Source: Azolla caroliniana (lineage: Eukaryota > Plantae > Polypodiophyta). From it: DNA of 64,000 bases. Under the pieces are notes generated by a model. That model did no database searches. It was not told the DNA's origin and saw only the letters and a list, made by a program, of their open reading frames with translations. The translations under genes were made by a program, and so were the position numbers. Location: contig JBHGNT010000022.1 in the NCBI GenBank assembly GCA_043228905.1, forward strand, positions 6,944,001 through 7,008,000, in the 5' to 3' direction. This document shows, piece by piece, positions 1 through 62,283 of the stretch (position 1 is the stretch's first letter; every line of letters begins with the position of its first letter).

Positions 1-1005
1 GCAATTGGGTTCTGTTATATGACAACAGCCTCGACAACCAGCACAAGGCGATGCGGAAGTTCGCAAGGAGGTGGTTCGGGCCTTACCTGGTGACAAGCGG
101 CAACGACAACGGGACCTACCATCTCACGGACCTTGACGGGATGAGGATGACAGTGCCGGTGGCCGGGAAAAGGATCAAAGCGTTCAAAAAGCAGCACGAG
201 GATGAACCGGACCCGGGCGGCTTGGATAGCGAGGACGACCGGTTCGGAGTGAATGGTGATCCTGAGGATGAAGGGTAAGCGCAGGCTGGTCTTCTCTGAC
301 AAGAGTCTATTTTGGCGCATACCGGTGGATGCGCGGTTAGGTGGGGGCGGATGTCGTGGAGAAAACCGTTCCTAGGTAGAACCGGAGAATAATGTGCACG
401 AACCGGCCCTTACACGTGGGCACAAGTTTTGTTGTAATATATATATTTAGGTACAAGTCAGCAGATGTGAATATCCTAGGTAACACACATTTGTTAGGTA
501 GAAAATCGAGGCATATCTTTGTCTGAAAGGACAGAGAATAAAGATGATGTAACGGGTTGTGACGGCCTCCCTCCTTGGGCTATAAAAGAGAGGGAGAGGA
601 ATCGTAATGGGGATCTCTTTTGTTGAGGACGAAGTGCTATCGGACTGGGACCAGGCTCTTCTCCTTCGTCTTTCTCTGTATTTGCTCTGTGGAGGTTTTC
701 GGGAGGCTGACTCTGCTCCGCGGAACACCCGAGTGCTTCCGACCGAGTCTCAATCTCGTGTATGTGCGTGTAGGCGTCAGAGCTTGTCGCTCACCGGCCC
801 GCCGGTTGTAACCCCTTTTATCTGATATATATATACATACACATACACACATTCATCTTGCTTCAATCAGTTGCGTTTTTGTGTATTTGTGCGTCTGCGA
901 AGCACGGCCATTGTCTTTCTTGCTCCCCGCCTGCTCTCTTGTTCCTCGGACCAAGACCCCCGCGGTCCCGCCTCGTTCTACACGCACGTGCGTAATAACG
1001 CGACA
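1..1005 (+). mobile_element. 3' end of a Ty3/gypsy (Tat/Athila-like) LTR retrotransposon: integrase C-terminus, PPT and 3' LTR
   Basis: ORF 51-278 (RKFARRWFGPYLV...GTYHLTDLDG...VAGKRIKAF) matches the GPY/F integrase C-terminal motif. A purine tract GGTGGGGGCGGA ends at 351, directly before the LTR. Confidence 0.85.
352..1005 (+). repeat. Gypsy 3' LTR (654 bp)
   Basis: Termini TGTCGTG...CGCGACA form an imperfect inverted repeat. TATA-like CTATAAAAG at ~580. Preceded by a PPT. Confidence 0.8.
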
Positions 1006-12665: not shown

Positions 12666-13762
12666 TGTCGTGAAGATCCGTCACTAAGTGCGGATCGTGA
12701 TGCGGAACCACCGGGGTCCTGGACCGGAAGGATTCGAAGTTTGCACTAACTTTAGCGAGAAAGTATTTAAGATAGATTGAGAGAGATTGATATGATGAAA
12801 GAGAGATATTGAGATAAAGATTGAAATTTTAACTTTTAGATTTAAGAGAGAAGATACATCAACAATAGGATTAGAAGTCTCTTATTTTTCCCAAATTTTT
12901 CATTTGTTTGATTCCTCCACTCTTTTATAGATGTCCCCATGCATATGGTGCATGTGAGGGTGTAAGACATGCACATAATGCATGCTTGCTATGTCATCAT
13001 CTAAGCTCTCATGTATGAGAATTTACATGTAAAAGCATAATGATAAAAATATACCTTTTAAGGAAATGAGTTAGCTTAGTGGTAAGTATATTGCTTCCTA
13101 TCTTGGAGGTGTAAGGTTCAATCCTTGCTCACATCCCTTTTAAAACACAAAATACTACTAGGCTTTTGGTCTTGTATTTACAGCAAAAATCTTCAAAACA
13201 CCATGCACCGCGATCAACCGACTGATTCGTCTGTCCGGTCCTGTCTGTCCCGACCGGTTCAATCTGATCCCGATCTGATCCTCTTCGTCACCATCCGGTC
13301 CTGGTCTCGGTCGCCGGTTGCCGTCTCGTCGCCTCCGTCCGGTCGCCGTTGGCCAAAACCTTTACAAGTAGTTAGGCCACACCCATTCATCTAGTTAGTT
13401 TAGCTCAAGTCACCTTGAACATTCTATGATCCACTCATAAACACAAAGTAATAGATTTTGACCCTGCTTATATACTCTGGGATCCTTATTTGTCCTTTCT
13501 ATGTGGGATAGCTCGTAGTTTTGTTTTTTCTCTTCTTCTTCACAAACTTCATACCCACATAACTTGCCACTTAGTGGTCCGTTTCTTATGTGGTAAAGTG
13601 TATTCGAAAGCTCTTGAAAACCTCCATCTTTTTGTACCAAGATATTAAGATAGTATAAAATAATATCTTCAATATTATTGTTTTATATTGTATGTGAAGA
13701 ACCACACTCGATTTTGTACATTCCATACAATTTTCTCACCGTTGCCGAAAATCTTCATGACA
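12666..13762 (-). mobile_element. Gypsy-type solo LTR (1.1 kb) containing a tRNA-like cassette
   Basis: 12-bp terminal inverted repeat TGTCGTGAAGAT/ATCTTCATGACA. Flanks CCGG/TCGG. The minus-strand end resembles the U5 end of LTR 352-1005. Minus-strand CTATAAAAG at ~12922-12930. Confidence 0.75.
13066..13135 (+). ncRNA. tRNA-like (Pol III A/B-box) cassette, not a functional tRNA
   Basis: TAGCTTAGTGGTAAG (A box with D-stem GCTT/AAGT) ... GGTTCAATCC (B box, stem GTAAG/CTTGC), followed by a T run. Confidence 0.6.
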
Positions 13763-14284
13763 TCGGAGAGAAGGAAACAACTGAAGCCGGGGGAGGCAAG
13801 AAGAAAACGAAAGCCGAGTCGATTGAAGAAGTTGGCACATCCAATAAAGTTGGAACAAGTGGTGATGACGGCAGAGTCCAAAAGGATAGAGCCGATTGGT
13901 ATGAGAAGGCCAAGACTCGGACTTGGTCTGACGTGGTGATGGGCCTGAAGGTTGAAGAAGAATTGGAGATAACCAACTCAGACAAGAGCTGGAACGAATC
14001 GGAGGCAAACAATTATGAAGAGGAGTTCGATTCAGAGGAGCCGAATCAATAGAAGGCCAAGCGGACGAGGAAACTACGAAAGTCGATACCAACATGGAGG
14101 GACAGACAGGTCGAGGAGCACCGAAGTCGCAACAACAAAGGAGCTAAGAAGGGTCTTATGAGCAAACAAGTCGACTGAGAAGGTCGAGGTGAGCGGTACC
14201 AGACGGGTCGTTGGAAGCAGAACCGGACAGGTCAAGGAGCGCGAGCAAGGTGGGAAAATACTAGGAGGAGCTGGAGGAAAGGAG

Positions 14285-15345
14285 CCGGTTCAGTCCGGCT
14301 TGGAACAAATGGCTGAGTCGGCCTTGCCATAAGTTCGAATCCGGTAATTCAACTACATTCACTATGCCCTCTGGATTGGTAACCATAAGTGGATACAAGT
14401 TGTTGTACTTGTATCCGCATCGGATTTTCATGATTCCTCGACCAATCATCCATGAAGACTCACGAAGAGTTGTTCGATACCCGGTTTCGGCTAGCATGCT
14501 GATGGAGACCAAATTCCTTCTTAGCTCGGGTATGTGCCGGACTTGGTCTAGGTGATTGAATTGTCATTCGAGAATTGAATGGGGACCTCACCAATCCCCG
14601 CGATTATGCACTCCTGCACGTTGCCAAGTCGGACTATGTCATCGGAGTCCAACAACCACATTCGTGCATATTGCGCGTTGTAGAGGACTTGGTTGACACT
14701 AGGAGAACAAATCAAATCGGATTGTCCTTGTGTTCGATTGAATCACTGACCATTCTCCTTTCTTTTTATTGACCAATAGTGAGAAATGTTGTGGTTGACC
14801 TTTCTACAATGTGTGCAACATGCATTCGCCTGACCATTCCTTGATTTTGACCTTTTCCGATCATCCCTCCTCTTTGGCCGATTCTTTCAGTTGGCTCGTT
14901 TGAGTGGTGAGCTTTTGCCGAATCTTCGAAGGTGAGATTCATCGATCGTCGTCGAATGTCTTCCGATAGGATTTGTCCGACCGTTTTGTCCAAATTGAGA
15001 TTTAGACATCTGTTGGCAAACGTCGTACAGACGACCTCCTAGCTCTCTAGAAAGCTCGAAAGGAGGGCAAGGGCCTTAATTTCTTCTTCAAAGTTAATCC
15101 CTTAGGAGGAGAGTTTGGACAACACCCGACTGAAGGTGTTGATGTGGGATGTTGCCAGATCCGACCCTCTCATCTTCATATTGAACAATTGTTTGATCAA
15201 TATGAGTTTCGACTTGTAACTTCTCCCACATGGAGAATGCCGCTGTCTCCTTTGCCATGCTGAAATAGACATTTTTTGTTAGGTGCATCTGTATAGTGGA
15301 GCGTGTGATTTCGTCCATAGATCTCCATTCTTCAGCAAACATCAA
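14285..15345 (-). mobile_element. Copia family B gag-protease fragment
   Basis: Degenerate ORFs (EITRSTIQMHL..VYFSMAKET, DQVRHIPELRRNLVSISML, LWQGRLSHL) are homologous to the + strand element at 15.9-17.2 kb. Confidence 0.8.
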
Positions 15346-15395
15346 TGTTGGCCAAGTGTTGTGTTGGATGGGTTCAACTTGTCTTCAATTATTAG

Positions 15396-15650
15396 TGTTG
15401 GCATAAAAGGCCGACTCCTTCCACTTTGTATCCAAGTGTGAACTCGTCCAAAGAATTAGGACGTAGTATATAAATGATAACCTAACGTTGTAAAGGTGCT
15501 TCACCTTCTTGATCATCTTTTATTGAGCCTCGGAGAGAGAGTGTGAGAATGAATGCAATAACAGAGCTTCCATTAAAGCTTAAACCATGTCTATCTTCTG
15601 TAATATCTTCTTGTCTCCATTCTGTGTAGTTTGCTGAACACATACGAAAG

Positions 15651-15732
<82 letters not shown>

Positions 15733-18700
15733 GTTTATGCGCATATTCCATCAATAACTGGTATCAGAGCAACTTGCGGTTCAACAGCAACAAACAACAG
15801 AAACACCGAAAAGAAGAACAAGAAAAAAATAGGTCAAAAAAATCTTACTTTTGAAGAAGAACATGGCTTCAACATCTCGAACAGGAGTTGAAATCAGAAA
15901 ATTCGACGACAAAACTTTGCCCTATGGAAGGAGATGATGTAGGATGTGTTGATCATCAGAAGACAAGTCAAAGCCATTCGACACAGTGAAAAACCTGCCT
16001 CGATGACAGCCGAAGAATGAACATCTACAGACAAAATCGCACTCTCCACCATCATAATGCATCTGGCCGAAAACGTCTACTTCAGCATGGCAAAAGAGAC
16101 AACAACATTCTCACTATGGGAGAAGCTACAAGCCGTGTACAAGAAAAAGTCCTCATGAAGATGAGAGAGACCGGTCTGCCTACATCTCACATCAACACCT
16201 TCAGCCGGGTGTTGTTAGAACTCTCTTCAAAAGGGATTAACTTGCCCTCCTATCGAGCTTGCCGACAAGTTGGGAGGTATTCTGCACGACATATGCCAAT
16301 AGCTGACCAATCCTAAATCTAGATGAGACGATCGACCAAGTCCTCACTAAGGACATTCGGCGAAAATCGATGGGAATCACCATTGATGAGTCAGCAAAAG
16401 CCCACCACTTGAGTGAGTCGGTCAACCGATTAAATCGATCAGAAGAACAAGCTGACAGAGTCGATTGACACCATCGTTGATCGAAAACGAGGGGAGACCA
16501 ACAGTGGTCGAAGTCGAGAACGAGCTGATCAGGCGAATTCTACACACATTGCAGAAAAGCTAGCCATAATGTTTCTGACTACTAGCCGATCAAGAGGAAA
16601 GAAAGTGGTCGGCGATCCGAGAGAAATCAAGGATGAACCGACTCGGACCACTCTTCGGTCTGCAACCAAATCAACGTTGTCGACACTCGATCTGGAGAAA
16701 TTCTCTCCTTAGAGGATTCAATGATCGAAGAATTCCTCTAGAGTGCACAAGAAGCACACACGTGGTTACTAGATTCTGGTGCCACATTCCACGTGACCCC
16801 CAACATCGAATGGTTTTCAAACTATTCGGCTGACGCCATCGACACAGTTTGACTAGGCAACGGGCAAGAGTGCAGAATAGCAAGAGTTGGAAAAGTACCA
16901 ATTCAACTGCCAAACAATAACACAATAATCATGCACCAAGTTCGACAAGTACCCGATCTGAAAAGGAGTCGGGTCTCCATCAGCATGCAAGCCGAAGACA
17001 GGCATCGAATGACTCTAAGTCAGTCGGTATGGGTGATCAGCAGAGGAAATCTCAAAATAGGTAGCGGGCACAAGTACAATAACTTGTATCCATTAATGGC
17101 GATCAATCCAGAAGGGGTCGTGAACGTAGCTGAAAAGACTGACCCAAAACTATGGCATGGCCAACTTGGCCATATGTCTCAAGCCAGACTCGATCGGCTA
17201 ATGGCGGTGGGCTACATCCGGAAACGTCAAGCAAAGACAGACTTCTACAACTATTGTCGATACGGGAAACAGACCCGAAGTCCGCATTCTCTCCCATATG
17301 AGATGGTACGACAACCCCTAGAGCTCGTGCACACAAATATATATGGGCCCATGCCAGAGCGATCACTAGGAGACTCCTGGTTCATCACTTTTATAGATGA
17401 CTGTACACGGAAGGTTTGGGCCTACTCCATCAAGTCCAAAGACGAAGCACTCAAGGTCTTCACTCAGTGGATATCCGAAGTGGAGAACCGGTCGGGGATC
17501 CGAAGTGGTGAAGACACTCCAATCCAACAACGGAGGTGAGTACACCTCTAGAGTTTTCAAACAATAATTGTTTGAAAAAGGGATCCGACATCAAAAGACC
17601 GTTCCCTACACACCATGCAGAATGGGGTAGCCGAATGGATCAACCGAATCATCCAAGAGAGGGTGACAACAATGTTGCAGCAAGCCGAACTGAAGCTGGA
17701 GTTCTGGGCCGAGGCATTACAGACGACAGTATACCTAGTAAATCTATCACCGTTGAAAGGAATCAGGCTCAAAGTGCGATAGAAACTATGGTCAGACACA
17801 CAACCAGCCTATGATAGGCTCCGTATATTTGAATGCGAAGCCTACGCATTTATCCCCAGGGAGAAAAGGACCAAGTTGGCACCCCATGTGACGAAACTTG
17901 CATATTTCTCGCCTATGGAACCGATGGGGATTTCGGCTATAGGCTATGGGACCTAGAGAATCGGAAACTGATCCAGAGCAGTGATGTAGTCTTCAATGAA
18001 GAATCAATCTTCTCTTAACGGAACCATTAGAAAATAGTTGGTAAAAAGATATCCTTCAAAGCCGACTATATCCGAAAGGTGCTGAAGCGCTTCAACATGG
18101 AGAATGCGAAGCCAACACTAACACCGATTCCGACGTCGATCCGACTATCAGACAGAGACTCTCCTTCAACGGACAAGGAGAGAGAGCTTAATGCAAAGAT
18201 GCCCTACGCATCGGACGTAGGAAGTATCATGACACAATGGTGACGACCTAACCCGACCTAGCCTATGGTGTAGGGGTGGTCAGCCGGTACATGTCAAATC
18301 CATGACGGAAGCATTGGGAAGCCGACAAGCACATGTTCATGTAACTGAGAGCAACCGAAGACACATAGTAGACCTTCGGTTTGACAACCTCAGCCGAAGT
18401 CAAAGGCTACACTGACGCCGACTATGCCAGCAATACGGACAATTGGAAGTCAACATTAGGCTATATTTTCACCTATGGTGGAAGTGCTATATCATGGAGG
18501 TCGAAGCTTTAAGAGTGCACGACCTTGTCGACCACAAAGGCCGAGTACATAGCAAAATCGGAGGCAGCAAAAGAAACGATATGGTTGCATCGACTAACTG
18601 CCGATTTCTTAGCTACAAGACGAAATGACCAACCCGCGTCGACGATTTATTGCGACTCACAGAGTGCAATACACCTTATAATTAATCCTATCTATCATGC

Positions 18701-19103
18701 GAAGAAAAAGCATATTGAGGTGCGATATCATCACATTCGAGAGCTCATAATCGAGAAAAAGCTCGAAGTCCCAAAGATCGACATCGAGGTGAATATCTCT
18801 GATTGCCTGATGAAGCCACTCCCTGATCAACGCTTCGGAACACTAAGGACAAAGATGGGATTGCGACAAGAACTGAGCAGAAGAAGGCCGAACGAGGAGC
18901 AAAAGGTAAGTCGAACCGATCGACTCAGACAAGTCAATCTGACTAACTAGCCGAACCAAGCTAGACATTGAACACATCTCTGCCAACTCAGTCACATGCC
19001 GACTGACTTGTAAATATAAATTTAGATTAATTTTGTAATCTAGGTTTATGGGGGAGATAACCCCAAACACTTGTACATGACGGAAAGAGTAGTCCTTTTA
19101 CAA
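15396..19103 (+). mobile_element. Decayed Ty1/copia family B (Tork/Tnt1-like) element, with most of RT deleted
   Basis: 5' LTR 15396-15753 (TGTTGG...CCATCA). PBS TGGTATCAGAGC at 15759. Gag MASTSRTGVEIRKFD, integrase (LELVHTNIYGPM, FIDDCTRKVW) and RNase H (YCDSQSAIHL, KHIEVRYHHIRE). Confidence 0.88.
15653..15732. repeat. (TC)n(AC)n compound microsatellite inside an LTR
   Basis: Directly visible dinucleotide runs. Confidence 0.95.
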
Positions 19104-19330
19104 TGTCGCGAAAATACGACAAGAATACGTGAACTTGAGGCAGGACCCCGGGGCCTGTGACCAGAGGATATCAAATTCGTATGTTATGTATTAAGAATTA
19201 ACGAAAATCAGAAATATTAATATTTTTCATTACCAAAGGAAAAGAAAGATTACAACCAATCCCAAGATTGGGAATACAGAAGTTTAGATTTAGTGAGATA
19301 TGGGTTGATAAGAAAATTAACATTTTTTTT

Positions 19331-19605
19331 CTTCAATGAGAGATGGATTCGATAAGATAATTAGGATTTTCAGCTTCGATGAGAGATGGATTCGATAAGA
19401 TAATTAGGATTTTCAGATTCGATGAGAGATGGATTCGATAAGATAATTAGGATTTTCAACTTCGATGAGAGATGGATTCGATAAAATAATTAGGATTTTC
19501 AGCTTCGATGAGAGATGGATTTGATAAGATAATTAGGATTCTTGGCTTTGATGAGAGATGGTTTTTATAAGATAATTAGGATTCTTGGCTTCGATGAGAG
19601 ATGAA
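19331..19605. repeat. 43-bp minisatellite, about 6.3 copies
   Basis: Unit GATGAGAGATGGATTCGATAAGATAATTAGGATTTTCAGCTTC. ATGAG recurs at 19336, 19379, 19422, 19465, 19508, 19551 and 19594. Confidence 0.95.
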
Positions 19606-19916
19606 TTCCTTTTTCTTCCCCCCCGAAAAAAAATACTTGCATGAAGGAACTTTAGTTTTTGCCTCTACCTTTCCATTGCATGCGTCCACATGGCATTTAC
19701 TTTAGTTGTATGGCCTCCACATTCAGTTGCATGCGTCCACATGACATTTACTTTAGTGGCATGGTCTCCACACTTAGTTGCATGCGTTCATAAAACGTAA
19801 TATTCGTGTTCGTGCAAGCATTCAAACGTTTGGAAACGTTTGGAAACGAACACGTTTGAAATGGGAAAAATATGTGCTCCTTTTTATTTTCGTTTTTTTC
19901 ATTTACTATCATTACA

Positions 19917-20510
19917 ATTTAGCTCACCCTAGTGGTAAGGAGTCATGCCATTTGTTGTTTGTGTCTTGGGTTCGATTCCCAATTTTCCCATCTCTTTCTC
20001 TCTCTAGCAAAATTTTATGTTAGTGTTATAATAGTTTTTATTCTTTTATTTTTTTAATTATTAGAACTAAGCATAACCTAGTGGTAAGTTGTTGTGCTAC
20101 TATTACTTGTGTCTTGGGTTCAATTCCCAACTTTCTCTCATATTCTCTTGTTACTGTCATGGCAAAATTTTATGTTAGTGTCATGTTCCTTTTTCTTTCT
20201 TTCTTTGTTATTAGAAATTAGCTCACCCAAGTGGTAAGTTGTTATGCTACTACTGCCTATGTCATGGCAAAAATTTATGTTAGTGTCATGTTCCTTTTTC
20301 TTTCTTTCTTTCTTTCTTTCTTTCTTATTTGAAATTAGGTCACCCTAGTGGTAAGTTGTTATACTAGTATTGCCTATGTCATGTTTTCTTCATATTCTCG
20401 AATATACGTTTTATGAGTTTTTGATTTTTTCTTTTTTTCTTTCTTTGTTATTAGACATTAGGTCACCCTCGTGGTAAGTTGTTATGCTACTACTGCCTAT
20501 ATCATGTTTT
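19917..20510 (+). repeat. Tandem array of five tRNA-like A-box/B-box units
   Basis: Heads TTAG(C/G)TCACCCTAGTGGTAAG at about 19919, 20067, 20218, 20335 and 20458. The first two keep the T-arm TTGGG-TTCRATT-CCCAA. Confidence 0.75.
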
Positions 20511-21078
20511 CTTCATATTCTCAAATATACATTTTATGAGTTTTTGAATGTTTGATTATAATTTATAATGACATATTTTGATTCAATCTCTATATTTTTT
20601 GTAAAGTTCTAAAGTGAGGATGATAAAGATGTCTTGATTCACATCCCAAAAGTTTGCATGTGATACAATGCAAATATTGCAACCATACTTATGTTGGTGG
20701 TTCACAATGGATTAGAGTCCACTTATTGGGATTGAGAGTGAATCAATTATTAATATAGACCCTAGTAAATCCAATCCAATCCAACTTTGAGATGATTTAC
20801 CCGTTTGATTGAATCATTCTCGAATGCGAATGCACGTATGATACGTATGCTTCATTCTATGCATGTGTTCACATGACCTTTACTTTAGTTTATTTTACTT
20901 TACTTTAGGTCGTCGCATGATCCGTAATGTTCGGCCTGTGCATGATCCGTCTGTCTCGACCGACGCCCATCCGATCCGGTTTCGTCACTGTCCGGTTCAA
21001 TCATCTGGTTCCGTAAAAAACCATTAGGATTAATTAAGCTTAGTTCTTGCTATTCGTTGCCGTCGGACAACAAGGTCG

Positions 21079-21494
21079 CTTTGATACCACTTGATGGAAA
21101 TTGTTACCTAGTGACACAAGTGGGACAAGTGTGAAACAAACCAAAGGGAGCCGAGCACTAACGGCTGAATAAGGGAAGTCCAACATCAAGGAGGGAGTGG
21201 GTGGAAAGCGCCGAGTAGAATGAAGCTATATATCGGGGAGTAACGAACACAAGGGGGCGCAAAAGAATCTAGAAAACTACGTTAGTATAGACTAAGAGAG
21301 AGTGAGTGAGTGTTCACCAATTATACTCGATGCTTGTATATGTACTTGTATACTAAAGTTAATTGAATATACATGTATGCTTTGTGGGTAATTTCCGTGT
21401 CTCATCTCTATACGCATATCTATACAACGTTTGGTCTGTGTGAGTGTTAGTCGGTCGGCTACCTACAGTCCAAGGGTCAGAGTCACAGTTGACA
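21079..21494. mobile_element. Copia PBS (minus strand) plus an LTR-like segment
   Basis: CTTTGATACCA at 21079-21089 is the reverse complement of a tRNA-iMet PBS. A TGTTA...TTGACA segment (~21102-21494) contains a TATA-like motif. No clean TSD. Confidence 0.45.
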
Positions 21495-22134
21495 ATGTAA
21501 ACAATAGTTGGAAGGTCGGAAGGACAAAGCCAAAATTGAAATATGGAAAGGACGGAAATTAATATAATGAATTTTGCGAAGTATAAAATATAGTAAGTTA
21601 GTTAGGATAGTTTTTTTTCATAACAAAATATGCTTGATTAGTCAAATTCTGCATACATGACGACCTGAATAGGCTAACAACATTACAATGGGTGTAGCCA
21701 TGACAACCTATGAAAACCACAAATACCACAATCTAAGATTATTTCGACCTTGTCACCCAACATTTTTGCCAAAACTTCAAGGCACAAATCTATTACCACT
21801 GTTTGCATAGCATGTAATCAATGCATTCATTGGTGCCCTACCTATTACATCTTTCATAAAATAGTGTGTTACACCTTCAATTTCCAAACTCTACTCTTTT
21901 CTTTGTTGCTTCTGCACCATAACTCCAATGAATCCTCCAAATTTCTTGCACCTCACCAAACTTGGTTCGTAAACATGAACTCCACAATCGATGAACACCA
22001 ATTCCATCGTATTCAACATGTTGTAGTGATATATCTTCTTTCACAATGATTCCTAGATCGATGCTACACCTGAGAGTTCATCATATCCATATGAACCTAC
22101 CATATTAAAATACTAGTTCTCTACTACAATCCAA

Positions 22135-23225
22135 TCTCCTCAGACCCTCATGAAAATTTGCTTCTGCCTCTGCCACCATCTTCACTCATTGTTGTATAAA
22201 CTAAAAATAAATCAATCTTCTTCAAAATATTTCCACATCAACCATCTCACCATTTTCCATCAAATTCCTATATAGACAACAAAGAAAACGAATAAGTTGT
22301 CCTCATCCACTCATGAAATCTTGCTTCAACCCTCGACAACATCCTCACTCATCCTTTCAAAAATAAATTAGCTTCATTTTCCACAACATCCATTATGCCA
22401 TTCATTCCCGAGTCCTGTATATCTCTATTTTCAGCAATTTCCTTTACATACACAAAATAGAATGAATCCACTCTCCTCAAACCCTCATGAAACCTTGATT
22501 CTGCCTCCGCCACCATCGTCACTCATCGTTCTTAAAACTGAAAATAAATAAGTATGCTTCAAAGAAACTTCCACATCAACCATCTCACCATTTTCCATCA
22601 AAATCCTATATAGACAACAAGGAAAACAAATCAGTTGTTCTCATCCACTCATGAAATGCTACTTCAACCCTCTACAACATCCTCACTCATCCTTTCAAAA
22701 TTAAATCAGCTTCATTTTCCACTACAACCATCTTGTCATTCATTGCCCGATTCCTCCACCTACAAAAACCAAAATGATTCTATTGTTCTTATACCGTAAT
22801 GAAAGGATGGTTTAATGCCTAATGAAAAGATTCTTCACCCCCCCACACCATCCTTATCAAATAAAAACATAAGCTTCATTTTACACATCCATCATCTCGT
22901 CAATTAAGACTATAGTAATTTCTTGTATATACACACTCCTCAGACCCTCATGAAAATTTGTTTCTGCCTCCGTCACCATCTTCACTCATCGTTCTAAAAC
23001 TAAAAATAAATAAATCTGCTTCAAAATATTTCCTCATCAACCATCTCACCATTTTCCACCAAATTCCTGTATAGACAACAAACAAAATGAATCAGTTATC
23101 CTCATCCCCTCATGAAATTCTACTTCAACCGTCAACAACATCCTCACTCATTCTTCTAGCAATAAATCATCTTCACTTTCCACATCAACTATCTTGCCAT
23201 TCATCGCTCGTGTCCTGTACCTAAA
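22135..23225. repeat. Higher-order tandem repeat of ~165-bp alternating A/B monomers
   Basis: CTCATGAAA anchors at 22147, 22310, 22484, 22648, 22947 and 23109. A monomers (CAGACCCTCATG) alternate with B monomers (CATCCACTCATG). Confidence 0.85.
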
Positions 23226-23599
23226 AATATGCTACAGCCCCTGACATCATCTTCAATCATTAAAGATAGAAAAACTTCTTCTTTTTTCCCCGTCCACCCT
23301 CTTGTCGATTAACAACAAAGGCCTGTACATAAGAAAAAAGGAAAAAAAAGACAAAATGAGTATACTATTCTATAACTCCCGCCACTATTTTCGCCACCAA
23401 AATCCTTGAATAACCATCTCGCTGAATCCAACAATCTACTTCCACGAACGGAGTAAGTCACCTATGCCTCAACCACCTCCTCCATCTTGAGTTAGAATAG
23501 TTTTGTTGTAGTTCTTGCTGAATAAGTCAAGTGTATTCTTGTTATAGGAACTCTCGAATCACCTATAAAAAGGAACCGAGAACAATGTAATTATATCAG

Positions 23600-38144: not shown

Positions 38145-40716
38145 ATGGCTGCTTATGTTCTCATGTTCCTCCTCCTCCTCATCCTGCTCCTTTTGTCTTC
38201 TGCCCCCCTAGTTATCATATGCCAACAACAGACATTCGCAGCAGCGACTGCTCTTAATGATCCATGGAAACATGAGGGAAGACGTAACGCATTGTATGAT
38301 GATGATGATGATGATGAAGAAGAAGCTGGAGAAGAGAGTTATGCAAAATCTTATCGACATGGGTATGATGATGAAGATGAGAAGCAATATCAGGCTCCTC
38401 CTTCTGCAAGGCATCATGATGATCGGGATGGTGATGGTGATGGTACAAGAAGCCATCGTGGAGGACATCGGCATAGTTTTGTGCTGGATATTGATGATGA
38501 CAGATCATCGTCTCTCTTCCACACAACAGTCTTCAGCACGGAGGCCGGAGAAACGAAGTTCCTTTTGCCACGAGATTCCACTGATGATCATGACAATCAC
38601 GATAACGAGCTCGCAAGGCAGAGGATCGGCTTAAGCTTCCTAACATTAGAGCCTAACGCCCTGTTGTTGCCACACTATACAGATTCAGACTGCCTCTTTG
38701 TGATCAACAAAGGTTTTCTCCCTTTTTGTTTTTCAGTGTAATATATATATATCTGTGGTGCTAGGCTGAGCATGAAGATGTTTGAATGATTTAATAGTAT
38801 TGCATGATAAGCATGGCCCATATTCTATGAGTATATTATATATGTATGTTCCCTTCATTCTTGTGTGCATATATGTAAATGTTCAAATGATGATGATTGA
38901 TGATGATTACTATTACTACAGGCAGAGGCCTCTTTTCATGGATTGATGGGGAGGATCTTCAAAAGTTGCAGTTGGAGGAAGGAGATGTGTATAGGATAGA
39001 GAGTGGCACTGTCTTCTATTTCCTCAATGACGATCAAAATCGAAAGATGCATGTCTTTGGCATCCATGATTTGGCAGCTGGAGGATCTACACGATCTGTG
39101 ATCAGAGACGGGGTGCGATTCCAAATTCTGTGTGTTTTTATAATATATGGCCATACCCATTGATTTGAGCAACCGATGCCTTTTCTCTTTGATGTTTTGA
39201 ATGAGATCCATTAGTCAATGTTTTGTTTTTGTGTTTAATAATGTATTCAGGGTTTCTTTAACGTGGCGGGGGCAGAGACCATTCTATCTGGGTTTGATGA
39301 GGATGTGCTTTCAACCGCCTTCAATGTATGTTGTATGGTTACACAACACAAGGATTTAGGTTTTGGTTACACTCTATGGATAATTTAAGCTAAATAATTG
39401 CGCGCATAATTATTTGGAAATAGGATGCGGCTTAATGAAAAGATATATGTTTTTTATGATTTTGCAGGTATCTGGTGACGAAGTCTATGATCTGCTGAGC
39501 TCTGGAAGGGAAGAAGGACCCATCATCATCTATCATGCGTCGAAGGAGCGCAACCAATCATCAAGTTCTGTTCCTTCAACAACAACAACAACAGAAAAGC
39601 CTCTCGTGAATGTGGTGGCAGAAGTTTTGCTTGAAGACACGAGTGCCCTTCTCCTGCACAGCATACTGAAGAAAGAAGGAGAAGGAGAAGGAGCTCCTGC
39701 CAAGAAGCCACTCAACATATTCCAGAAGAAGCCCATGTTCATGAACGAGTATGGATCCACGAGCGTGGCGGACGAGACCGATTCCGAGCTCCTCAAGCAT
39801 GCCAACAAGGGAGTCTTTTCAGTGAAATTGAAACCTGTGAGTGGTAATCGTAGTAGTAGTAATAATTATTGGGTCATGGTGGAAAATGCCAGGCATTTTA
39901 TCAAGCATGCATCATGGATTCAGTGTTTAGAAAGTTTGAATGAAATTTATAATAAGCAATTATTATTCACATTAACACAATGCATCATGAAAAGAGTGTT
40001 AGAAAGTTTTAATGATTGTATTTTGAGGAATTATGATCGGACAAAAAAATAGAGTATAGAGAGATGTGAATTTTCGATTGAATGAATTGAGTGATGATTG
40101 ATGTACGTACACACACACAGAGTGCAATGTTGGTGCCCCATTGGAACCCGAGGGGCATGGAGATCGCGTTAGTGACGAAGGGGGAGGGAGACATTCAGGT
40201 GGTGGTGCATTCGGATAGTGTTAGTAGAAGTAATGGCGATCTCGAGAGGAGGGTGAGGGAGAGGGTGAGGGAAGGCAGCGTCTTCTACGTCCCTCGGAAC
40301 TTTGGCATGTGTCAGGTGGCATCTACCAATGAACCACTGGAGTTCCTGGGATTCTCAACGTCCTCCAGGCCCAACCATCCCCAGTTCCTTGCAGGTAATA
40401 TATGATATGAAACACACAAAAATTCATATCATATCATATTGTATGAGATGATGATGATGATGATATATATATATATATATATATATATAATGTACATGTA
40501 TTTTATCTCTTGTTTTTAAATTATTTACTACATACTCTGCTAGGATGGAGCTCGGTGCTGAAGAAGGTGGAGGCCGATGTGGTGGCATCGGCATTCAATG
40601 TGCCGGCCGATTACGTGCAGGGATTCTTGGGAAGGCAGGCTCAGGCCGTCATTGTGCCAGGTGTGGTCCCTAAGGCTGAACGAGGAGACAGAAAGCAAAA
40701 TAGCAGCAGCAGCTAA
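38145..40716 (+). CDS. Vicilin/7S globulin-like bicupin storage protein, 6 exons, about 549 aa
   Basis: Exons 38145-38712, 38922-39112, 39251-39325, 39468-39836, 40121-40394 and 40544-40716. All introns are GT-AG and phase-consistent (1650 nt in total). Signal peptide MAAYVLMFLLLLILLLLSSA. Cupin motifs LEPNALLLPHYTDSD, GDVYRIESG, ILSGFDEDVLSTAFN, AMLVPHWNPR, GSVFYVP and PQFLAG. Confidence 0.92.
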
Positions 40717-41389
40717 TTTTCACCTTGTTTGTTCCTAAGCTTGTATATACATGTAGCTCCCATCAGTCAGTAAAGAAAAGAGCTACTAAAATTATCGTTA
40801 TAGAAGTGTCATTTTTGCACGCAGAAAAATAACATAATAAAATATCTTTTTTAGTCTTGTTTTGGACAAAAGAGTCTTCCTTCTCCTCTCTATTTGGCAG
40901 GTAATTTCTATTTAGTAACTATGTCCCAATTAATTTGTCCTCTCTCTATCTCATGGTTTAAGCATTTTTTCGAGTGGAAGTTAGTATCTCTAGTCACTAT
41001 CTACGGCATTTGTACCGTTCTTTTCTGAAGGCCTCGTCACTATTTGATATATAAGAATCATAAATGCGCTCTTAACTTGTGAATCTTCTAGGGATGGAAC
41101 TGCCTTGAACTTGTCTTGGGAATCTCAAATTATCAGGGCCGTCCATTTTATTATGATCTGCATAAAAGAAAAATAATTAAAAAAAGAAATAATAATAATA
41201 ATAAAATAGGGAAGAACGCGATCGAGGTTTGTCTCTTTGTGCGTTGGGTGAAGCTTTATGTGTTAGAAATTAGGGTTTTTGTTTTTCCCAAGCTTTTTGT
41301 GGGAGTTTGTTTGATGAATAGAACTGGAAGATTAGGATTTTTTCTCTCTTTTTGTTTGGGTAATGAATATGCTATACCAACAATGTTGG

Positions 41390-44964: not shown

Positions 44965-45217
44965 CGGAAAATTTTCTAACTAAACCTCTCCAACATTCTG
45001 AACACATTATTTGTTGCAAGCAAGTTGGATTAATCGATGTAATTGAAGACAAAGATAAAAATCTACACTTCTAGAAAACTGCCTCATGAGGTTTCCCTCA
45101 TGAGAAGGAAACTGCCTTGGTGATGGTCTTTTATAGCCACCACCATTGTTAATAGTTAGGGTGTTATGTCATACTAAAACTTTTGTTCCCTCATTCTCTC
45201 TCTTTTTTTTATCGTAA

Positions 45218-45283
45218 TTAGCTTACCCTAGTGGTAAGTCGATAACACTACAAGCACTGTGTCTTGGGTTCGAAACCCAATTT
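45218..45283 (+). ncRNA. tRNA-like A/B-box cassette of the same type as the 19.9-kb array
   Basis: TTAGCTTACCCTAGTGGTAAG-20 nt-GTGTCTTGGGTTCGAAACCCAA. Confidence 0.6.
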
Positions 45284-45337
45284 CCTTACCTCTCTATTAT
45301 ATACTTCATATATATCTCTATTTCACTAGATGCCACT

Positions 45338-45409
45338 ATGGAATGTAGGGGTTGAACCCATGACCACCTAGTCTCCACTGGGCAACCTTACCAACTAAGC
45401 TACATCCAT
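45338..45409 (-). ncRNA. tRNA-derived 72-nt near-cloverleaf (pseudo-tRNA)
   Basis: The minus strand reads ATGGATG TA GCTTAGTTGGTAAGG TTG CCCAG TGGAGA CTAGG TGGTC ATGGG TTCAACC CCTAC ATTCCAT. Acceptor, D, anticodon-like and T arms are present but imperfect. Confidence 0.6.
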
Positions 45410-45786
45410 CTGGGCTTCCCTCGTTCTCTCTCTCTATCTCTATCTCTCTCTCTCCCTTCTTTTTCCTACAAAGTAGTTATACCTTATACACTCCTTGTAT
45501 GTGTATTGTAAGGTCTTTTATTAATCGGTTGACATTAATATACACATTGTTTGTCTTTGTTATTATGTGTATGTTTCCTCCCTGTTAGTCTTAAGACTTA
45601 ATTAGTCTCTGAATCAAGGTCAGAGAATCAAGGTTTAACGTGAGGAAGTGAGAGTGAGAGCGTTTGTAACTTGTTCGCAAAGTTACGATAGTGTAAATAT
45701 AGTAGCTCAAGAATGATTGACAATCATTGTTGCCCATTTTGTTACCAATAGGGTATACAAACCTCCTTTTGTTTTTTCATTATATT

Positions 45787-53321: not shown

Positions 53322-53759
53322 TCAGATCTTGTCGATGTCCTCATCCTCAAACTCGAGGTAGTCATCGGCGCCTCCTTCGTCCTCCTCATCCATGCCACCG
53401 GCGATACCCTCGTTGAGCCTGACGTTATCCGGGAGCTCACCGTAGGCTTTCAGGAGGCGGGCTTCATCGGGCATGTATTTGAGGATGACGTCCGCCTTGT
53501 CGTCCTGGTAGTCTCGGAGGCCGACCAGGACGATGTCGCCTGATGCGATCCACACCTTCTTGTGCATCTTCCCACGGATGTGGCACAGCCGCTTGGTGCC
53601 GTCGATGCACAGCGCCTCGCACCGTCCGTTCCCCAGCATCCTCAGCACCTGCGCGTACTCCTGCCCATCCTCCTTGAACACGAGCTCCCGCTTCTCGTCG
53701 TCCGCCTCATTCTTCCCACGCTTCCTGTTCTTCCCTCCCTTACCTTTGTTCTTCGGCAT
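53322..53759 (-). CDS. eIF1A: Eukaryotic translation initiation factor 1A
   Basis: 145-aa intronless [20 protein letters not shown]...[15 protein letters not shown]...[15 protein letters not shown]...[13 protein letters not shown] with an acidic tail. TATA-like ATTATAAAAA on the minus strand at ~54080. Confidence 0.98.
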
Positions 53760-58374: not shown

Positions 58375-61242
58375 CTATGAGACATTAGGTTGTACATCTG
58401 CATAAACATGAGACATTAGAATATAAGCAACTGAATCTTTTTCATCCAATTGTAGCGCATGTTCAAATGCTTCCCTTGCTAAATTTACATCACCCCATTT
58501 TCTACATGCACCTAAAATCGCATGGCACGCCACAAGATTGGTATAATGGAATGGATTTTCTTTGAGAACATTTACTGCTTTATCCAATTGGCCTGCCTTC
58601 CCAAGAAGATCAATGACACAATTATGATGCTTATTAGATGGAACAATTCCATAATCTTTACTCATAGCTTCCAAGTATGACTGGCTCATGCTATATAAAC
58701 CTCGACGATTGCAAGCACTAAGAATAACAATGAAAGTCACCATATTAGGGGCAGTACCCTCTCCCACCATTCTATCAAAAATATCAAAAACATTCTCACT
58801 TTGTCCTCGTTGAGCATATCCTGCCATCAGTACCGTCCACGAGACTACATCTCGATCACAAAGCTTTTCAAACACTTGTTGTGCCATTGGAAGTGAACCG
58901 CATTTGACATACATATCAACTAAGGTGTTCCCGATAATAATATCTCCTTCAAGCAACCCTTGCCTTTCAATATTGGCGTGTATTTCTTGGCCTTTTTTTA
59001 TAGCTCCTATGCTTCCACAGGCTTTCAAGCTGCTAACAAATGTAATTGAATTTGGAGGTATAAGTGCAAGTTGCATATGCTCGTAGCATTCCAATGCTTC
59101 TTCATTGTGCTCATTTTCAATATATCCTTCCATCAATGTGCTCCAGATGACTACGTCTTGAGCCAAAAGATTGTCAAATACTTCCCTTGCTCTGTGAGAC
59201 AAACCACATTTGGCATACATTTCGATCAAAGCACTACCAATAGAAAGATGCCCTTTGAGATGTCCATATCTCTCGATTTCTGAATGTATTTCTTGACCCT
59301 TATTTAGGTCTCCTAAGGTACCACAAATTTTCAACATAGAAACTAATGTGGCACCATCTGATGAGATCCCTTCAAGCTGCATTCTCTCAAAATACTCGAT
59401 TGCTTTCTCACTGTGACCATGCTCAGCAAATCCCACAATAAGTGCAGTCCATGAAATGACATTTCTCATTGGAAGTTTATGAAACACTGCTTGTGCTATG
59501 ACAAGAGAACCGCATTTGACATACATATCCACAATTGCACTACCAACCACAACATCGCTTTGCATCAATCCTTGTCTTTCAGCCTTAGCATGTATCTTTT
59601 GCCCAATATCAATGGCCTTCAAAATGCTACAAGCTTTTAGGCTTGATGCAAATGTGATTGCATCAGCATAGAAGCCCTCACGTTGCATTTGTTCATATCG
59701 ACTGAGTGCTTCCTCAGCATGTCCATGTTCCACATATCCTGTTATGATGGCATTCCACGAGACCACATTCCGGTATGGAATCTTCCCAAACACTTCTTGT
59801 GACATATAAATCAACCCACACCTCGCATACATATCTACCAATGCATTTCCAATGATGATTTCCTTCTCTAGTAAACCTTGTCTCTCAATCTCGGCATGCA
59901 ATCCCTTCCCTTTACTGACATCTTGTAAACTACTGCAAGATTTCAAGATGCAAACAAATGTCACAACGTTAGGGGTGACACCTTTCAGTTGCATTTGCTC
60001 AAAGTAGTGAAGTGCACTAACATTATGACCATTTTCAACATATCCAGTGATCAAAGTGGTCCATGAGATAACATTTGGGGTCTTTATCTTATCAAAAACC
60101 TTTTGTGCTTTGATAATATTACCACATTTACCATACATATCAATCAATGCATTTCCAAGTACAATGTCTCGTTTATGCCTGACATTTTTATTGATCTCAA
60201 TATGTATTTTTTCACCCTTTTGAATATCCCCAACCCCAGAGCAAGCTTTCAAGATAGACACATACGTGACCACATTCACAAGCACACCCTCAATTTGCAT
60301 TTCTTCATACAGTTTAAGTGCTTCTTCACTATAGCCATGCTCAACATAACTCAAAATCAATGCCGTCCATGATACCACATCGCGCTGAACAAGGTTATCA
60401 AAAACAATCTTTGATTTCGTGATGAAACCACATTTTCCATACATATCGATCAAAGTATTCCCAAGAGCAACATTTCTCTCAAGCAAACCTTGCGTCTCTA
60501 TCTCATTATGTATACATTCACCTAGAGTAAGGTCACCCATATTGCCACATGCTTTCAAGATGCAAAGATAAGTAACTTCATTAGGCACAACACCCTCTTG
60601 AATCATATCATTGTATAGACCTATGGCTTCTTTGCAACATCCATGGTATATGTAACCTGAGATAAGACCCGTCCACGACACGATATTGCGACTTTGGAGG
60701 TTATCGAACACTTGTCGGGCACAAGAAATGGAGCCACATTTCGCATACATATCGATCAGCGTGCTTCCCACAAACACATTGTGGTCGAGAAAACCAAGCA
60801 TTTTGATTCTTATATGAATTTCTATGCCTTTCGAAATGTCTTTTAGATGGGCACAAGCCTTCAACAAAGACACAAATATTCTCCCACCATCATCATGATA
60901 GCTTATACATCCCATTTGCTTCATTTTTTCATACAAATTCAGAGCTTCTTGTGGTTTCCCATATTCGACATAACCAATAATGAGTGAATTGGAGGCAGTT
61001 TCCGGAAACCATTCAAAAACAAACTGAGCATCATCTATACTCACAGATTCAACCATTATGAATACCAGGTGGTTTTGGAGTATTCTTTCTTGCCCTGCTT
61101 CTGTTAGGTATGACAGCAGGGTTAGTGCATATTTCGGGTTTCTGGATCTTCTGTAGTTTTCCAAGAGACCTTTGAGTTCTCTGATGAAGCATTGAGGAAG
61201 CAGAGAACTAATGGGACATAGAGAGAGGGAATTGTAAAACAT
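58375..61242 (-). CDS. PLS-class pentatricopeptide repeat protein (E subgroup, no DYW), putative organellar RNA editing specificity factor
   Basis: 955-aa uninterrupted ORF with about eight S-P-L triplets (LIDMYAKCG / VVSWTALI / TFVCILKAC). These are followed by L2 (TFIVILSAC), S2 (CVIDLLGKAG), E1 (AILGACRKWG) and partial E2 (AYILMSHVYA). The start codon is uncertain. Confidence 0.93.
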   Translation of the reverse strand: MFYNSLSLCPISSLLPQCFIRELKGLLENYRRSRNPKYALTLLSYLTEAGQERILQNHLVFIMVESVSIDDAQFVFEWFPETASNSLIIGYVEYGKPQEALNLYEKMKQMGCISYHDDGGRIFVSLLKACAHLKDISKGIEIHIRIKMLGFLDHNVFVGSTLIDMYAKCGSISCARQVFDNLQSRNIVSWTGLISGYIYHGCCKEAIGLYNDMIQEGVVPNEVTYLCILKACGNMGDLTLGECIHNEIETQGLLERNVALGNTLIDMYGKCGFITKSKIVFDNLVQRDVVSWTALILSYVEHGYSEEALKLYEEMQIEGVLVNVVTYVSILKACSGVGDIQKGEKIHIEINKNVRHKRDIVLGNALIDMYGKCGNIIKAQKVFDKIKTPNVISWTTLITGYVENGHNVSALHYFEQMQLKGVTPNVVTFVCILKSCSSLQDVSKGKGLHAEIERQGLLEKEIIIGNALVDMYARCGLIYMSQEVFGKIPYRNVVSWNAIITGYVEHGHAEEALSRYEQMQREGFYADAITFASSLKACSILKAIDIGQKIHAKAERQGLMQSDVVVGSAIVDMYVKCGSLVIAQAVFHKLPMRNVISWTALIVGFAEHGHSEKAIEYFERMQLEGISSDGATLVSMLKICGTLGDLNKGQEIHSEIERYGHLKGHLSIGSALIEMYAKCGLSHRAREVFDNLLAQDVVIWSTLMEGYIENEHNEEALECYEHMQLALIPPNSITFVSSLKACGSIGAIKKGQEIHANIERQGLLEGDIIIGNTLVDMYVKCGSLPMAQQVFEKLCDRDVVSWTVLMAGYAQRGQSENVFDIFDRMVGEGTAPNMVTFIVILSACNRRGLYSMSQSYLEAMSKDYGIVPSNKHHNCVIDLLGKAGQLDKAVNVLKENPFHYTNLVACHAILGACRKWGDVNLAREAFEHALQLDEKDSVAYILMSHVYADVQPNVS

Positions 61243-62283
61243 GCTTCATGGCGATTCTACCATGATACAAAGACAGAGACAAAGACTGACAGAGATAGGT
61301 TTCTTTTCGTTCTCCAACTGCCCCACAGTTTTCGTTATTTCCCCGAAAAGCACCTGGCCGTCCTTGAGAAGAGAGAAAAAAGCGATGAATAGACAATACA
61401 TATTATAACCGCTCAAATAGCAAAGAAAATTAGGAAATTGGGGATACGGATTGACCATATAAATTGCTCACAGACCACGCAGAATTGCTCTTGTGGGGCT
61501 TGAACAAGGGCAGTTTGGAAATAAGGTAGAAACTGAGGACTATTACGGAAATTTCCCCGACAAAACACCAAGAAAAAACGCAGGTATTGACAACACCATC
61601 TACCCAAGTCGTTAGTGCACCTGACCTCGCTGGACAACAGCGAGAATCCAGTAGAAAAGTTGGGCATTAGAGTTAATAACCTAATTATAGTACATACATA
61701 CTAGGAACCTTGGTGAGAAAAGAATAGCTATGGAGGCGCGTTACAAGAGTTGGAACAATTGAAGTCGTCCGACAGCAAGAAAGATGGATGTGAAATCCGC
61801 CTTTCTGAATGGCATTCAAGGAGGATTTACTGTTGCACAAAGCCTTCAATGGCAGTAAAGGCAGGTATTCTGGCAGTAGTAGATGGATGGACTCCTCATC
61901 AAAGGAGATGTTGATTTCTTTCTTGGTCAGAGCAGGCGGAACCTAAAGTCCCGAGTTCAAGATTGACGGATTATGGGTCTGATGGACTCAATATAAATTT
62001 GGGGTTGCAGGTGTAATCAAATCCAAAAAGGGGCGTGGAGAGATAGATAGAGATGGGTAGAGATCTAAGATCTAATCTATCCTCTGAATTCTGACTAAAG
62101 GGAAGGGGGGGGAGGAAGAAGAAATGCGTGGCGTGAGAGGAGGTCGCAAGGAAATTCGAGTGCACTGTTCAGCAGTCGTTGCTTTGTTCTACCATAGAAA
62201 ACGAGAAAGAAAGACAGACACGACACACACACACATGCTGCGTATTCAGGGATTTGAACTTAGTGACTGACCTTCGCGTAGAC

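What the first reader, a model, noticed from the sequence alone, without database searches (positions are those of the whole stretch)
12666..21050. Gypsy-type LTRs that carry tRNA-derived Pol III cassettes (a possible tRNA analogue of Cassandra's 5S LTR)
Seen: three LTRs (352-1005, 12666-13762 and 19104-~21050) share a U5-like 3' end and TGTC(G/A)...CGACA-type termini where these are preserved. The first follows a gypsy integrase and PPT and has no cassette (654 bp). The second has one tRNA-like A/B-box unit (13066-13135) on the U3 side of its TATA. The third has five units. In both, the unit points antisense to the LTR, and no poly(A) tail or TSD is visible around it. Established: Cassandra TRIM LTRs carry 5S-derived Pol III promoters, and TFIIIC-bound tDNAs can act as chromatin barriers. 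Inference: this lineage captured and amplified tRNA-like promoters as a heritable LTR module. It might serve as an anti-silencing barrier, a source of antisense small RNA, or a decoy.
Basis: partly seen in the sequence, partly recalled or inferred. Interest (0 to 1): 0.8.

Follow-up and report, generated by a model that had tools for sequence, protein, structure and literature searches.

The report
Backwards tRNA-like unit in fern LTR
The five tRNA-like repeats are not part of the retrotransposon end but cargo of a small DNA transposon that jumped into it, each copied from the tail of a common short repeat; only the single, intact, backwards tRNA-like unit in the other end is shared across its family, most likely as a passenger.

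Summary
The finding splits into three things. (1) The five units in 'LTR3' lie inside a 1,073-bp insert (19789-20861) with short inverted ends and an 8-bp target duplication, likely a hAT MITE. Eight other loci share its left end, each with a different non-LTR flank. LTR3's own backbone has no cassette. (2) Each unit is the 3' part, read backwards, of a free ~210-bp SINE-like repeat with tRNA-like head, A-tail, 5' truncations and (GA)n targets. Of 112 distinct loci, 104 are free copies. (3) The unit in LTR2 is different. It has strict A and B boxes, a predicted cloverleaf and a T4 run, points antisense in U3, and is shared by 82-88%-identical contigs of a Phygy-like Gypsy LTR family in two coded organisms. 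A tRNA analogue of Cassandra is already published (Helenus, PMC10886601), but there the unit is sense and in small TRIMs. Amplification as an LTR module is refuted; a fixed single unit in one family stands; function is untested. The scan noted antisense tRNA-like passengers in retrotransposons of other genomes.

The parts
3..278 (+). C-terminal end of a Gypsy-order pol (integrase region), open at the window edge
   Evidence: 59 relatives; six full-length ones carry RT, RNase H-like, integrase-Zn and rve domains and list no chromodomain
352..1005 (+). LTR1, 3' LTR without any cassette; PPT just upstream; 3' flank ACGT (NCGN)
12666..13762 (-). LTR2, Phygy-like Gypsy solo LTR (1,097 bp) inserted in the 3' non-coding part of a copia element; 4-bp TSD CCGG/TCGG
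   Evidence: empty-site copies in the window; contigs skip it (table 5); varied flanks ending in ACGT (table 7)
12920..12930 (-). TATA-like motif of LTR2, same 11-mer as in LTR1
13066..13141 (+). Single tRNA-like unit in U3 of LTR2: strict A box, B box, predicted cloverleaf, T4 run 13 nt after the B box; antisense to the LTR and pointing away from the TATA
   Evidence: bridged to both LTR flanks by divergent contigs (table 8)
19104..19788 (-). LTR3 backbone, left part (U5-like end, 43-bp and 51-bp tandem repeats); no A or B box
19789..20861 (.). 1,073-bp non-coding insert, likely a hAT MITE: 7-bp inverted ends (CATAGAA, one mismatch at the left end here), 8-bp TSD at 19781-19788 and 20862-20869; interrupts a 51-bp tandem unit of LTR3
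   Evidence: same left end with 8 different flanks in L013, L021, L023, L042, L060, L082, L113, L119; 98 contigs with loose ends behind 20861 in run X12 (table 7)
19917..20493 (-).
   Evidence: profile of free copies hits all five, E 1e-12 to 3e-5; 0 of 5 strict A box, 2 of 5 B box
20870..21069 (-). LTR3 backbone, right part; exact end uncertain
   Evidence: flanks ACAA/ACAA, but the left flank belongs to one copia and the right flank runs into the PBS of another
45204..45415 (-).

Best explanation
The five-unit array is cargo of a 1,073-bp insert with an 8-bp target duplication (likely a hAT MITE) that landed in LTR3, each unit being the backwards-read 3' end of a free SINE-like repeat, while the single intact unit in LTR2 is a separate tRNA-shaped sequence shared across a Phygy-like Gypsy LTR family, most likely a captured SINE or tRNA relic carried as a passenger. 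Mechanism, SINE: the sense head, with A and B boxes (shown), would give a Pol III transcript (inferred). A LINE would copy it into (GA)n tracts by target-primed reverse transcription (inferred from A-tails, 5' truncation and TSDs; partner not found). MITE: one truncated copy entered the MITE and was duplicated in tandem there (shared sequence shown, order inferred), and a hAT transposase would move the MITE (inferred). LTR2: a unit captured once in U3 of a 3' LTR is copied to both LTRs in every later round of retrotransposition (established LTR biology), so it becomes fixed without needing a function. Being antisense and upstream of the TATA, it cannot produce the element's genomic RNA.
For: MITE: 8-bp TSD and interrupted 51-bp unit; 8 of 8 array-type loci start at the same terminus with different flanks and no LTR3 sequence beyond it; no A or B box in the LTR3 backbone; hAT elements have 8-bp TSDs and 5-27-bp TIRs (PMC3517528, passages). 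SINE: 104 of 112 distinct loci are free. A stands at tail positions 9-13 in 70-84 of 102. 44 of 71 are 5'-truncated. (GA)4 lies at the 5' flank in 35 and at the 3' flank in 34 of 67, against 6 of 2,019 background windows. The window copy has an 18-bp TSD, and L014 and L017 have ~14-bp TSDs. LTR2: 4 of 32 listed contig pieces (runs X3 and X12, coded organisms B and C; 23-30 differences in 168-197 bp) bridge both edges of the unit, and 4 more bridge the right edge. 4-bp NCGN TSD as in Phygy (PMC6317226, supplement row).
Against: The overall TSD signal in free copies is weak: 7 of 66 non-simple repeats of 10 nt or more, against a null mean of 1.8 and a maximum of 6 in 30 permutations. The loci were picked by a motif near the 3' end, so a constant 3' end and the broken A box are partly built in. 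No second MITE copy with both ends and no transposase or LINE partner was found. The LTR2 unit is intact (A box, B box, cloverleaf, T4), which a pure passenger need not be. Some contigs leave LTR2 near the unit (12 and 7 at 13076 with agreement 0.96-0.97; 7 at 13129 with agreement 0.62), and single contigs skip it (13043 to 13187). No intact two-LTR element was seen.
Confidence: 0.72

Rival explanations
1. The LTR2-family unit is a working, selected Pol III gene placed back-to-back with the LTR's Pol II promoter. TFIIIC binding would shield the promoter from silencing, or the ~80-nt RNA antisense to U3 would regulate the element.
For: Strict A and B boxes and a T4 run; minimum-energy fold is a cloverleaf, z -1.87, with 8 of 200 shuffles as good; the two listed family variants inside the boxes (13073, 13122) fall on degenerate positions (40 of 161 variants shown); present in divergent copies in two coded organisms.
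Against: Related LTR1 and the LTR3 backbone lack it; U3 hitchhiking explains fixation; no Rfam or ARAGORN tRNA call; the fold z is modest; no conservation test across whole copies was possible.
Confidence: 0.2
2. One reading: one Gypsy lineage captured a tRNA-like promoter and amplified it from zero to one to five copies as a heritable LTR module.
For: All three LTRs share a U5-like end motif; the LTR2 unit is the best non-family hit of the array-unit profile (E 0.3).
Against: The array lies in a TSD-flanked insert that occurs elsewhere without LTR3; 0 of 112 distinct loci place the unit in an LTR2 or LTR3 backbone; 0 of 5 units keep a strict A box.
Confidence: 0.03
3. The LTR2 unit is the head of a second free SINE family, and the contigs laid on it partly come from copies outside LTRs, so its fixation in the LTR family is overstated.
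For: Loose ends near both edges of the unit and rare joints that skip it; 14,037 pieces were not shown.
Against: Four listed divergent pieces bridge both edges; the largest loose-end groups agree at 0.95-0.97, which fits LTR subfamilies rather than random flanks.
Confidence: 0.1

Closest known systems
Helenus TRIMs / TRIMp3 (Kojima 2024, PMC10886601; parts 1-5 of 6 of the text read, supplement passages seen)
   Same: tRNA-like sequence with A and B boxes inside an LTR; solo LTRs occur; SINE insertion into an LTR proposed as origin; one seed-free plant family is known (Selaginella). The paper also says that 'not a few' Repbase LTRs hold tRNA-like parts.
   Different: Helenus are 311-1,263-bp non-autonomous elements. 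The longest LTR named is 323 bp, and the Selaginella LTR is 120 bp with a 5-bp TSD and a sense unit. LTR2 alone is 1,097 bp with a 4-bp NCGN TSD and its own TATA-like motif, and its unit is antisense in U3.
Cassandra TRIMs (PMC7215508, passages seen; PMC10886601)
   Same: Pol III promoter sequence carried in an LTR; occurs in ferns.
   Different: 5S-derived, in a TRIM, and drives the element's own transcript; none of this applies here.
Phygy non-chromovirus Gypsy lineage (Neumann 2019, PMC6317226; passages and one supplement row seen)
   Same: 4-bp NCGN TSD, TG..CA ends, Gypsy-order pol without a chromodomain next to LTR1; a PBS-like motif beside some LTR2-family copies.
   Different: Described from Physcomitrella; no tRNA-like LTR unit appears in the passages seen; lineage not confirmed by an RT tree.
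tRNA-derived SINEs (SINE2)
   Same: A/B-box head, A-rich tail, variable TSD, 5' truncation, dispersed copies.
   Different: The 3' half is itself an inverted tRNA-like sequence, and copies favour (GA)n tracts. No description of this family turned up in my searches, which do not cover Repbase or most subscription journals.
hAT MITEs (e.g. Mar, PMC3517528; passages seen)
   Same: Non-coding, AT-rich, short TIRs, 8-bp TSD.
   Different: Carries a tandem array of SINE 3' ends; autonomous partner not found.

Membership tests
Helenus | tRNA-like sequence with A and B boxes in the LTR | tested here: met
   LTR2 unit; tRNA ancestry not confirmed by Rfam or ARAGORN
Helenus | TRIM size (short LTRs, whole element about 0.3-1.3 kb) | tested here: not met
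   LTR2 alone is 1,097 bp; Helenus sizes
Helenus | unit oriented to transcribe the element (sense) | tested here: not met
   antisense to LTR2 by U5 end, TATA and PBS side; sense in Helenus-1_SMo
Helenus | short non-coding internal part between two LTRs | not testable with these tools
   LTR2 is a solo LTR; no genome held; no family copy in viral contigs
Cassandra | 5S rRNA-derived domain in the LTR | tested here: not met
   no 5S hit in Rfam scans
Phygy | 4-bp TSD with NCGN preference | tested here: met
   LTR2 CCGG/TCGG, LTR1 flank ACGT; loose ends at 12666 end in ACGT
Phygy | tRNA-Trp primer-binding site | tested here: inconclusive
   the loose-end cell at 12666 (53 contigs, agreement 0.4) reads in reverse as a TGG-starting motif; its match to tRNA-Trp is recalled; no such motif in the window or the 120 loci
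Phygy | RT/INT phylogeny places it in the clade | not tested
   only the pol C-terminus beside LTR1 is in the window; no coding part is linked to LTR2
SINE2 | 5' head with A and B boxes | tested here: met
   strict A box in 12 and B box in 17 of 21 near-full heads
SINE2 | A-rich or simple-repeat tail, 5' truncation, dispersed copies | tested here: met
SINE2 | variable-length TSDs | tested here: inconclusive
   clear in the window copy, L014 and L017; overall 7 of 66 against a null maximum of 6; many flanks are (GA)n and cannot be scored
SINE2 | Pol III transcription and a LINE partner | not testable with these tools
   no LINE 3' end shared with the SINE in the window; no RNA data
hAT MITE | 8-bp TSD | tested here: met
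   CATGCGTT/CATGTGTT; one copy only
hAT MITE | short TIRs and sharp ends shared by dispersed copies | tested here: met
   left end in 8 of 8 loci; right end from 98 loose-ended contigs at 20861
hAT MITE | related autonomous hAT transposase element | not tested
   no genome held

The most novel reading that the evidence does not exclude
A very abundant Phygy-like Gypsy family of ferns keeps, under selection, a complete antisense tRNA-like Pol III gene back-to-back with its LTR promoter, and uses it as a TFIIIC barrier against silencing or as a source of a self-regulating small RNA. This would be a role for captured Pol III units other than making the element's own RNA.
Probability: 0.2. Interest if true: 0.65.

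Novelty: new variant of a known kind. Interest (0 to 1): 0.33.

Why it matters
It shows how a striking 'cassette amplification' can be three ordinary mobile elements nested in each other. It adds two elements I found no description of: a (GA)n-favouring fern SINE with an inverted tRNA-like 3' half, and a MITE carrying its tail. The remaining live question is the intact antisense unit fixed in one large Gypsy LTR family. If it is bound by TFIIIC or transcribed, it would extend the Cassandra/Helenus idea from small non-autonomous elements to a barrier or antisense role in a long LTR, which can be tested on any assembled genome of this fern group.

Tried and rejected
No whole genome is held for the window, and the metagenome records behind five loci were not held for further reading. 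Three pattern scans of viral contigs found nothing. No RNA holder was listed for the LTR3 stretch; this is no evidence on expression. ARAGORN and Rfam gave no tRNA call on the window, on 24 loci and on 12 loci. I tested whether the SINE RNA folds back on its inverted halves. The window copy gives z -0.64 and ten copies give z -0.3 to -2.4 against mononucleotide shuffles, so this was rejected as a strong feature. I first took the region around 45200 for a fourth LTR carrying the cassette; the TSD and the 104 free copies show that it is a SINE insertion. A Helitron end was considered for the insert and dropped once the inverted ends and 8-bp TSD appeared. No LINE partner was found: L105 joins the SINE 3' end to mid-RT sequence, and in L072 the SINE lies antisense behind an RT frame. 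The pairwise score of the LTR2 unit against SINE parts exceeds shuffles, but any two A/B-box units would, so I did not count it as descent. Summed contig depths were not used as copy numbers. The ESM Atlas gave no answer, and the original Cassandra paper was not held. Eight duplicate loci were dropped before counting (L052, L074, L096, L099, L110, L112, L115, L116).
Full report
Setting. The window is repeat-rich DNA of a seed-free vascular plant, most likely a fern: the nearest named relatives of its PPR frame are mostly from Ceratopteris, Adiantum and Diphasiastrum, at 32-52% identity. No own genome is held.

The LTRs. LTR1 (352-1005) follows a PPT and the C-terminus of a Gypsy-order pol. Six full-length relatives carry RT, RNase H-like and integrase domains and list no chromodomain. 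LTR2 (12666-13762, minus) interrupts a copia 3' region that is continuous in two other window copies and is skipped by contigs in at least three runs. Its flanks are CCGG/TCGG, and LTR1's 3' flank is ACGT. Family copies end at 12666 with varied flanks that end in ACGT (53 contigs in X1, 32 in X12). A 4-bp NCGN duplication is the mark of Phygy elements (PMC6317226, passage and supplement row). The same row gives tRNA-Trp as the main primer. The loose-end cell beside LTR2 resembles such a site by my recall only, and no such motif is in the window or loci. The three LTRs align only over their last 65-130 bp (z 1.7-3.7), so they are at most related families.

The five-unit array is not LTR. It lies in an insert at 19789-20861 (1,073 bp). 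The insert has short inverted ends and an 8-bp duplication with one CpG-type mismatch, and it splits one unit of LTR3's own 51-bp tandem repeat. All 8 loci of the array type begin at the same left terminus, each with a different flank and no LTR3 sequence beyond it. At the right end, 98 contigs of run X12 leave the sequence behind 20861 with low agreement (0.4). An 8-bp TSD with 5-27-bp TIRs is the hAT signature (PMC3517528, passages), so I call it a likely hAT MITE. No second two-ended copy and no transposase was seen. Outside the insert, the 886-bp LTR3 backbone has no A or B box on either strand, and neither does LTR1.

The units are SINE tails. After dropping 8 duplicates, 112 loci remain: 104 free and 8 in the MITE. 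On the minus strand this repeat reads: tRNA-like head, body, inverted tRNA-like segment, then an A-run. The head has a strict A box in 12 and a B box in 17 of 21 near-full copies. The tail has A at positions 9-13 in 70-84 of 102 copies. Of 71 copies with a readable 5' side, 27 are near full length and 44 are truncated. (GA)4 flanks the 5' side in 35 and the 3' side in 34 of 67, against 6 of 2,019 background windows. The window copy has an 18-bp TSD, and L014 and L017 have ~14-bp ones. The overall TSD count is weak (7 of 66; null mean 1.8, maximum 6), partly because microsatellite flanks cannot be scored. Only 1 of 104 free loci (L102) had any of the three LTRs nearby, an LTR1-like end outside the repeat; many loci have short flanks. 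A profile from 83 of the 104 copies hits all five array units (E 1e-12 to 3e-5). The T-rich runs in front of each unit are the tail. None of the five keeps a strict A box and two keep a B box. The search motif fixes the A-box region, so its broken state in free copies is built in.

The LTR2 unit is real and different. It has strict A and B boxes, a T4 run 13 nt after the B box, and a cloverleaf as its minimum-energy fold (z -1.87; 8 of 200 shuffles as good). It is one of three A+B pairs in the window, where 0.17 are expected. The array-unit profile scores it at only E 0.3 and the head profile does not hit it, so descent from this SINE is not shown. Neither ARAGORN nor Rfam calls it a tRNA. Of 32 listed contig pieces, 4 bridge both edges of the unit, with 23-30 differences over 168-197 bp, in coded organisms B and C. 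Four more bridge the right edge, and 14,037 pieces were not shown. Against full fixation: groups of 5-12 contigs leave the sequence near the unit's edges, mostly in agreement with each other, and single contigs skip it. I read this as a family feature with subfamily variation. It lies about 135 bp upstream of the TATA-like motif and points away from it, so it cannot start the element's genomic RNA. Its transcript, if any, would be antisense to U3.

How it most likely works. The SINE would be transcribed from its head and copied by a LINE into (GA)n tracts (inferred). A truncated copy was taken up and tandemly duplicated in the MITE, which then moved into LTR3 (nesting shown, order inferred). 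The LTR2 unit was captured once into U3 and is copied to both LTRs in each round, so it needs no function to be fixed (inferred; confidence 0.72 for the whole account). The strongest rival is that it is a kept Pol III gene acting as barrier or antisense source (0.2), which its intact state allows.

Comparison with what is known. The tRNA analogue of Cassandra was published as Helenus (PMC10886601; parts 1-5 of 6 read; supplement passages). It includes a Selaginella family and a proposed origin by SINE insertion into an LTR. LTR2 fails two Helenus features, size and sense orientation, so it is not a member. Cassandra itself is 5S-derived (PMC7215508, passages). Searches for an antisense tRNA-like unit in Gypsy LTRs (no paper) and for this SINE or MITE (listings only) found no description. 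The library lacks Repbase and most subscription journals, and supplements I did not open may list such families. Earlier notes of this scan report antisense tRNA-like passengers in retrotransposons of other genomes (unchecked) and none on look-alike DNA.

Verdict. Observation partly confirmed, interpretation partly supported. New variant of a known kind; interest 0.33.

Noticed in passing
window 45204-45415 (-): Full-length copy of an abundant SINE-like repeat with a sense tRNA-like head and an inverted tRNA-like 3' half, in a (GA)n tract with an 18-bp TSD.
   Followed up: yes
window 19040-19103 and 21070-21092: LTR3's left flank is the end of a plus-strand copia whose 3' LTR is missing here (other copies join 19101 to the LTR at 15396), and its right flank runs into the PBS of a minus-strand copia. 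This suggests a deletion or recombination at LTR3.
   Followed up: partly
L072:311-4104 (-): Two overlapping frames of 609 and 660 aa on a contig of higher coverage, the second with a weak RVT_1 hit (E 1e-6); retroelement type not classified.
   Followed up: no
L113: An LTR1-like 3' end abuts the MITE array at an ATGT site, another nested insertion that fits the NCGN preference.
   Followed up: no
window 22128-23227: Three dispersed ~290-bp direct repeats, 84-87% alike, of unknown kind.
   Followed up: no
window 53322-53759 (-): Intronless eIF-1A reading frame (Pfam E 3e-24).
   Followed up: no
window 58375-61245 (-): PPR protein frame with an E motif; nearest named relatives are mostly from ferns and a lycophyte, 32-52% identical.
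   Followed up: partly
window 38146-40720 (+): Multi-exon gene that by eye resembles a cupin/vicilin storage protein (recalled); two raw frames gave no Pfam hit.
   Followed up: no
window 62363 (-): A third A+B box pattern match, not examined, probably chance.
   Followed up: no
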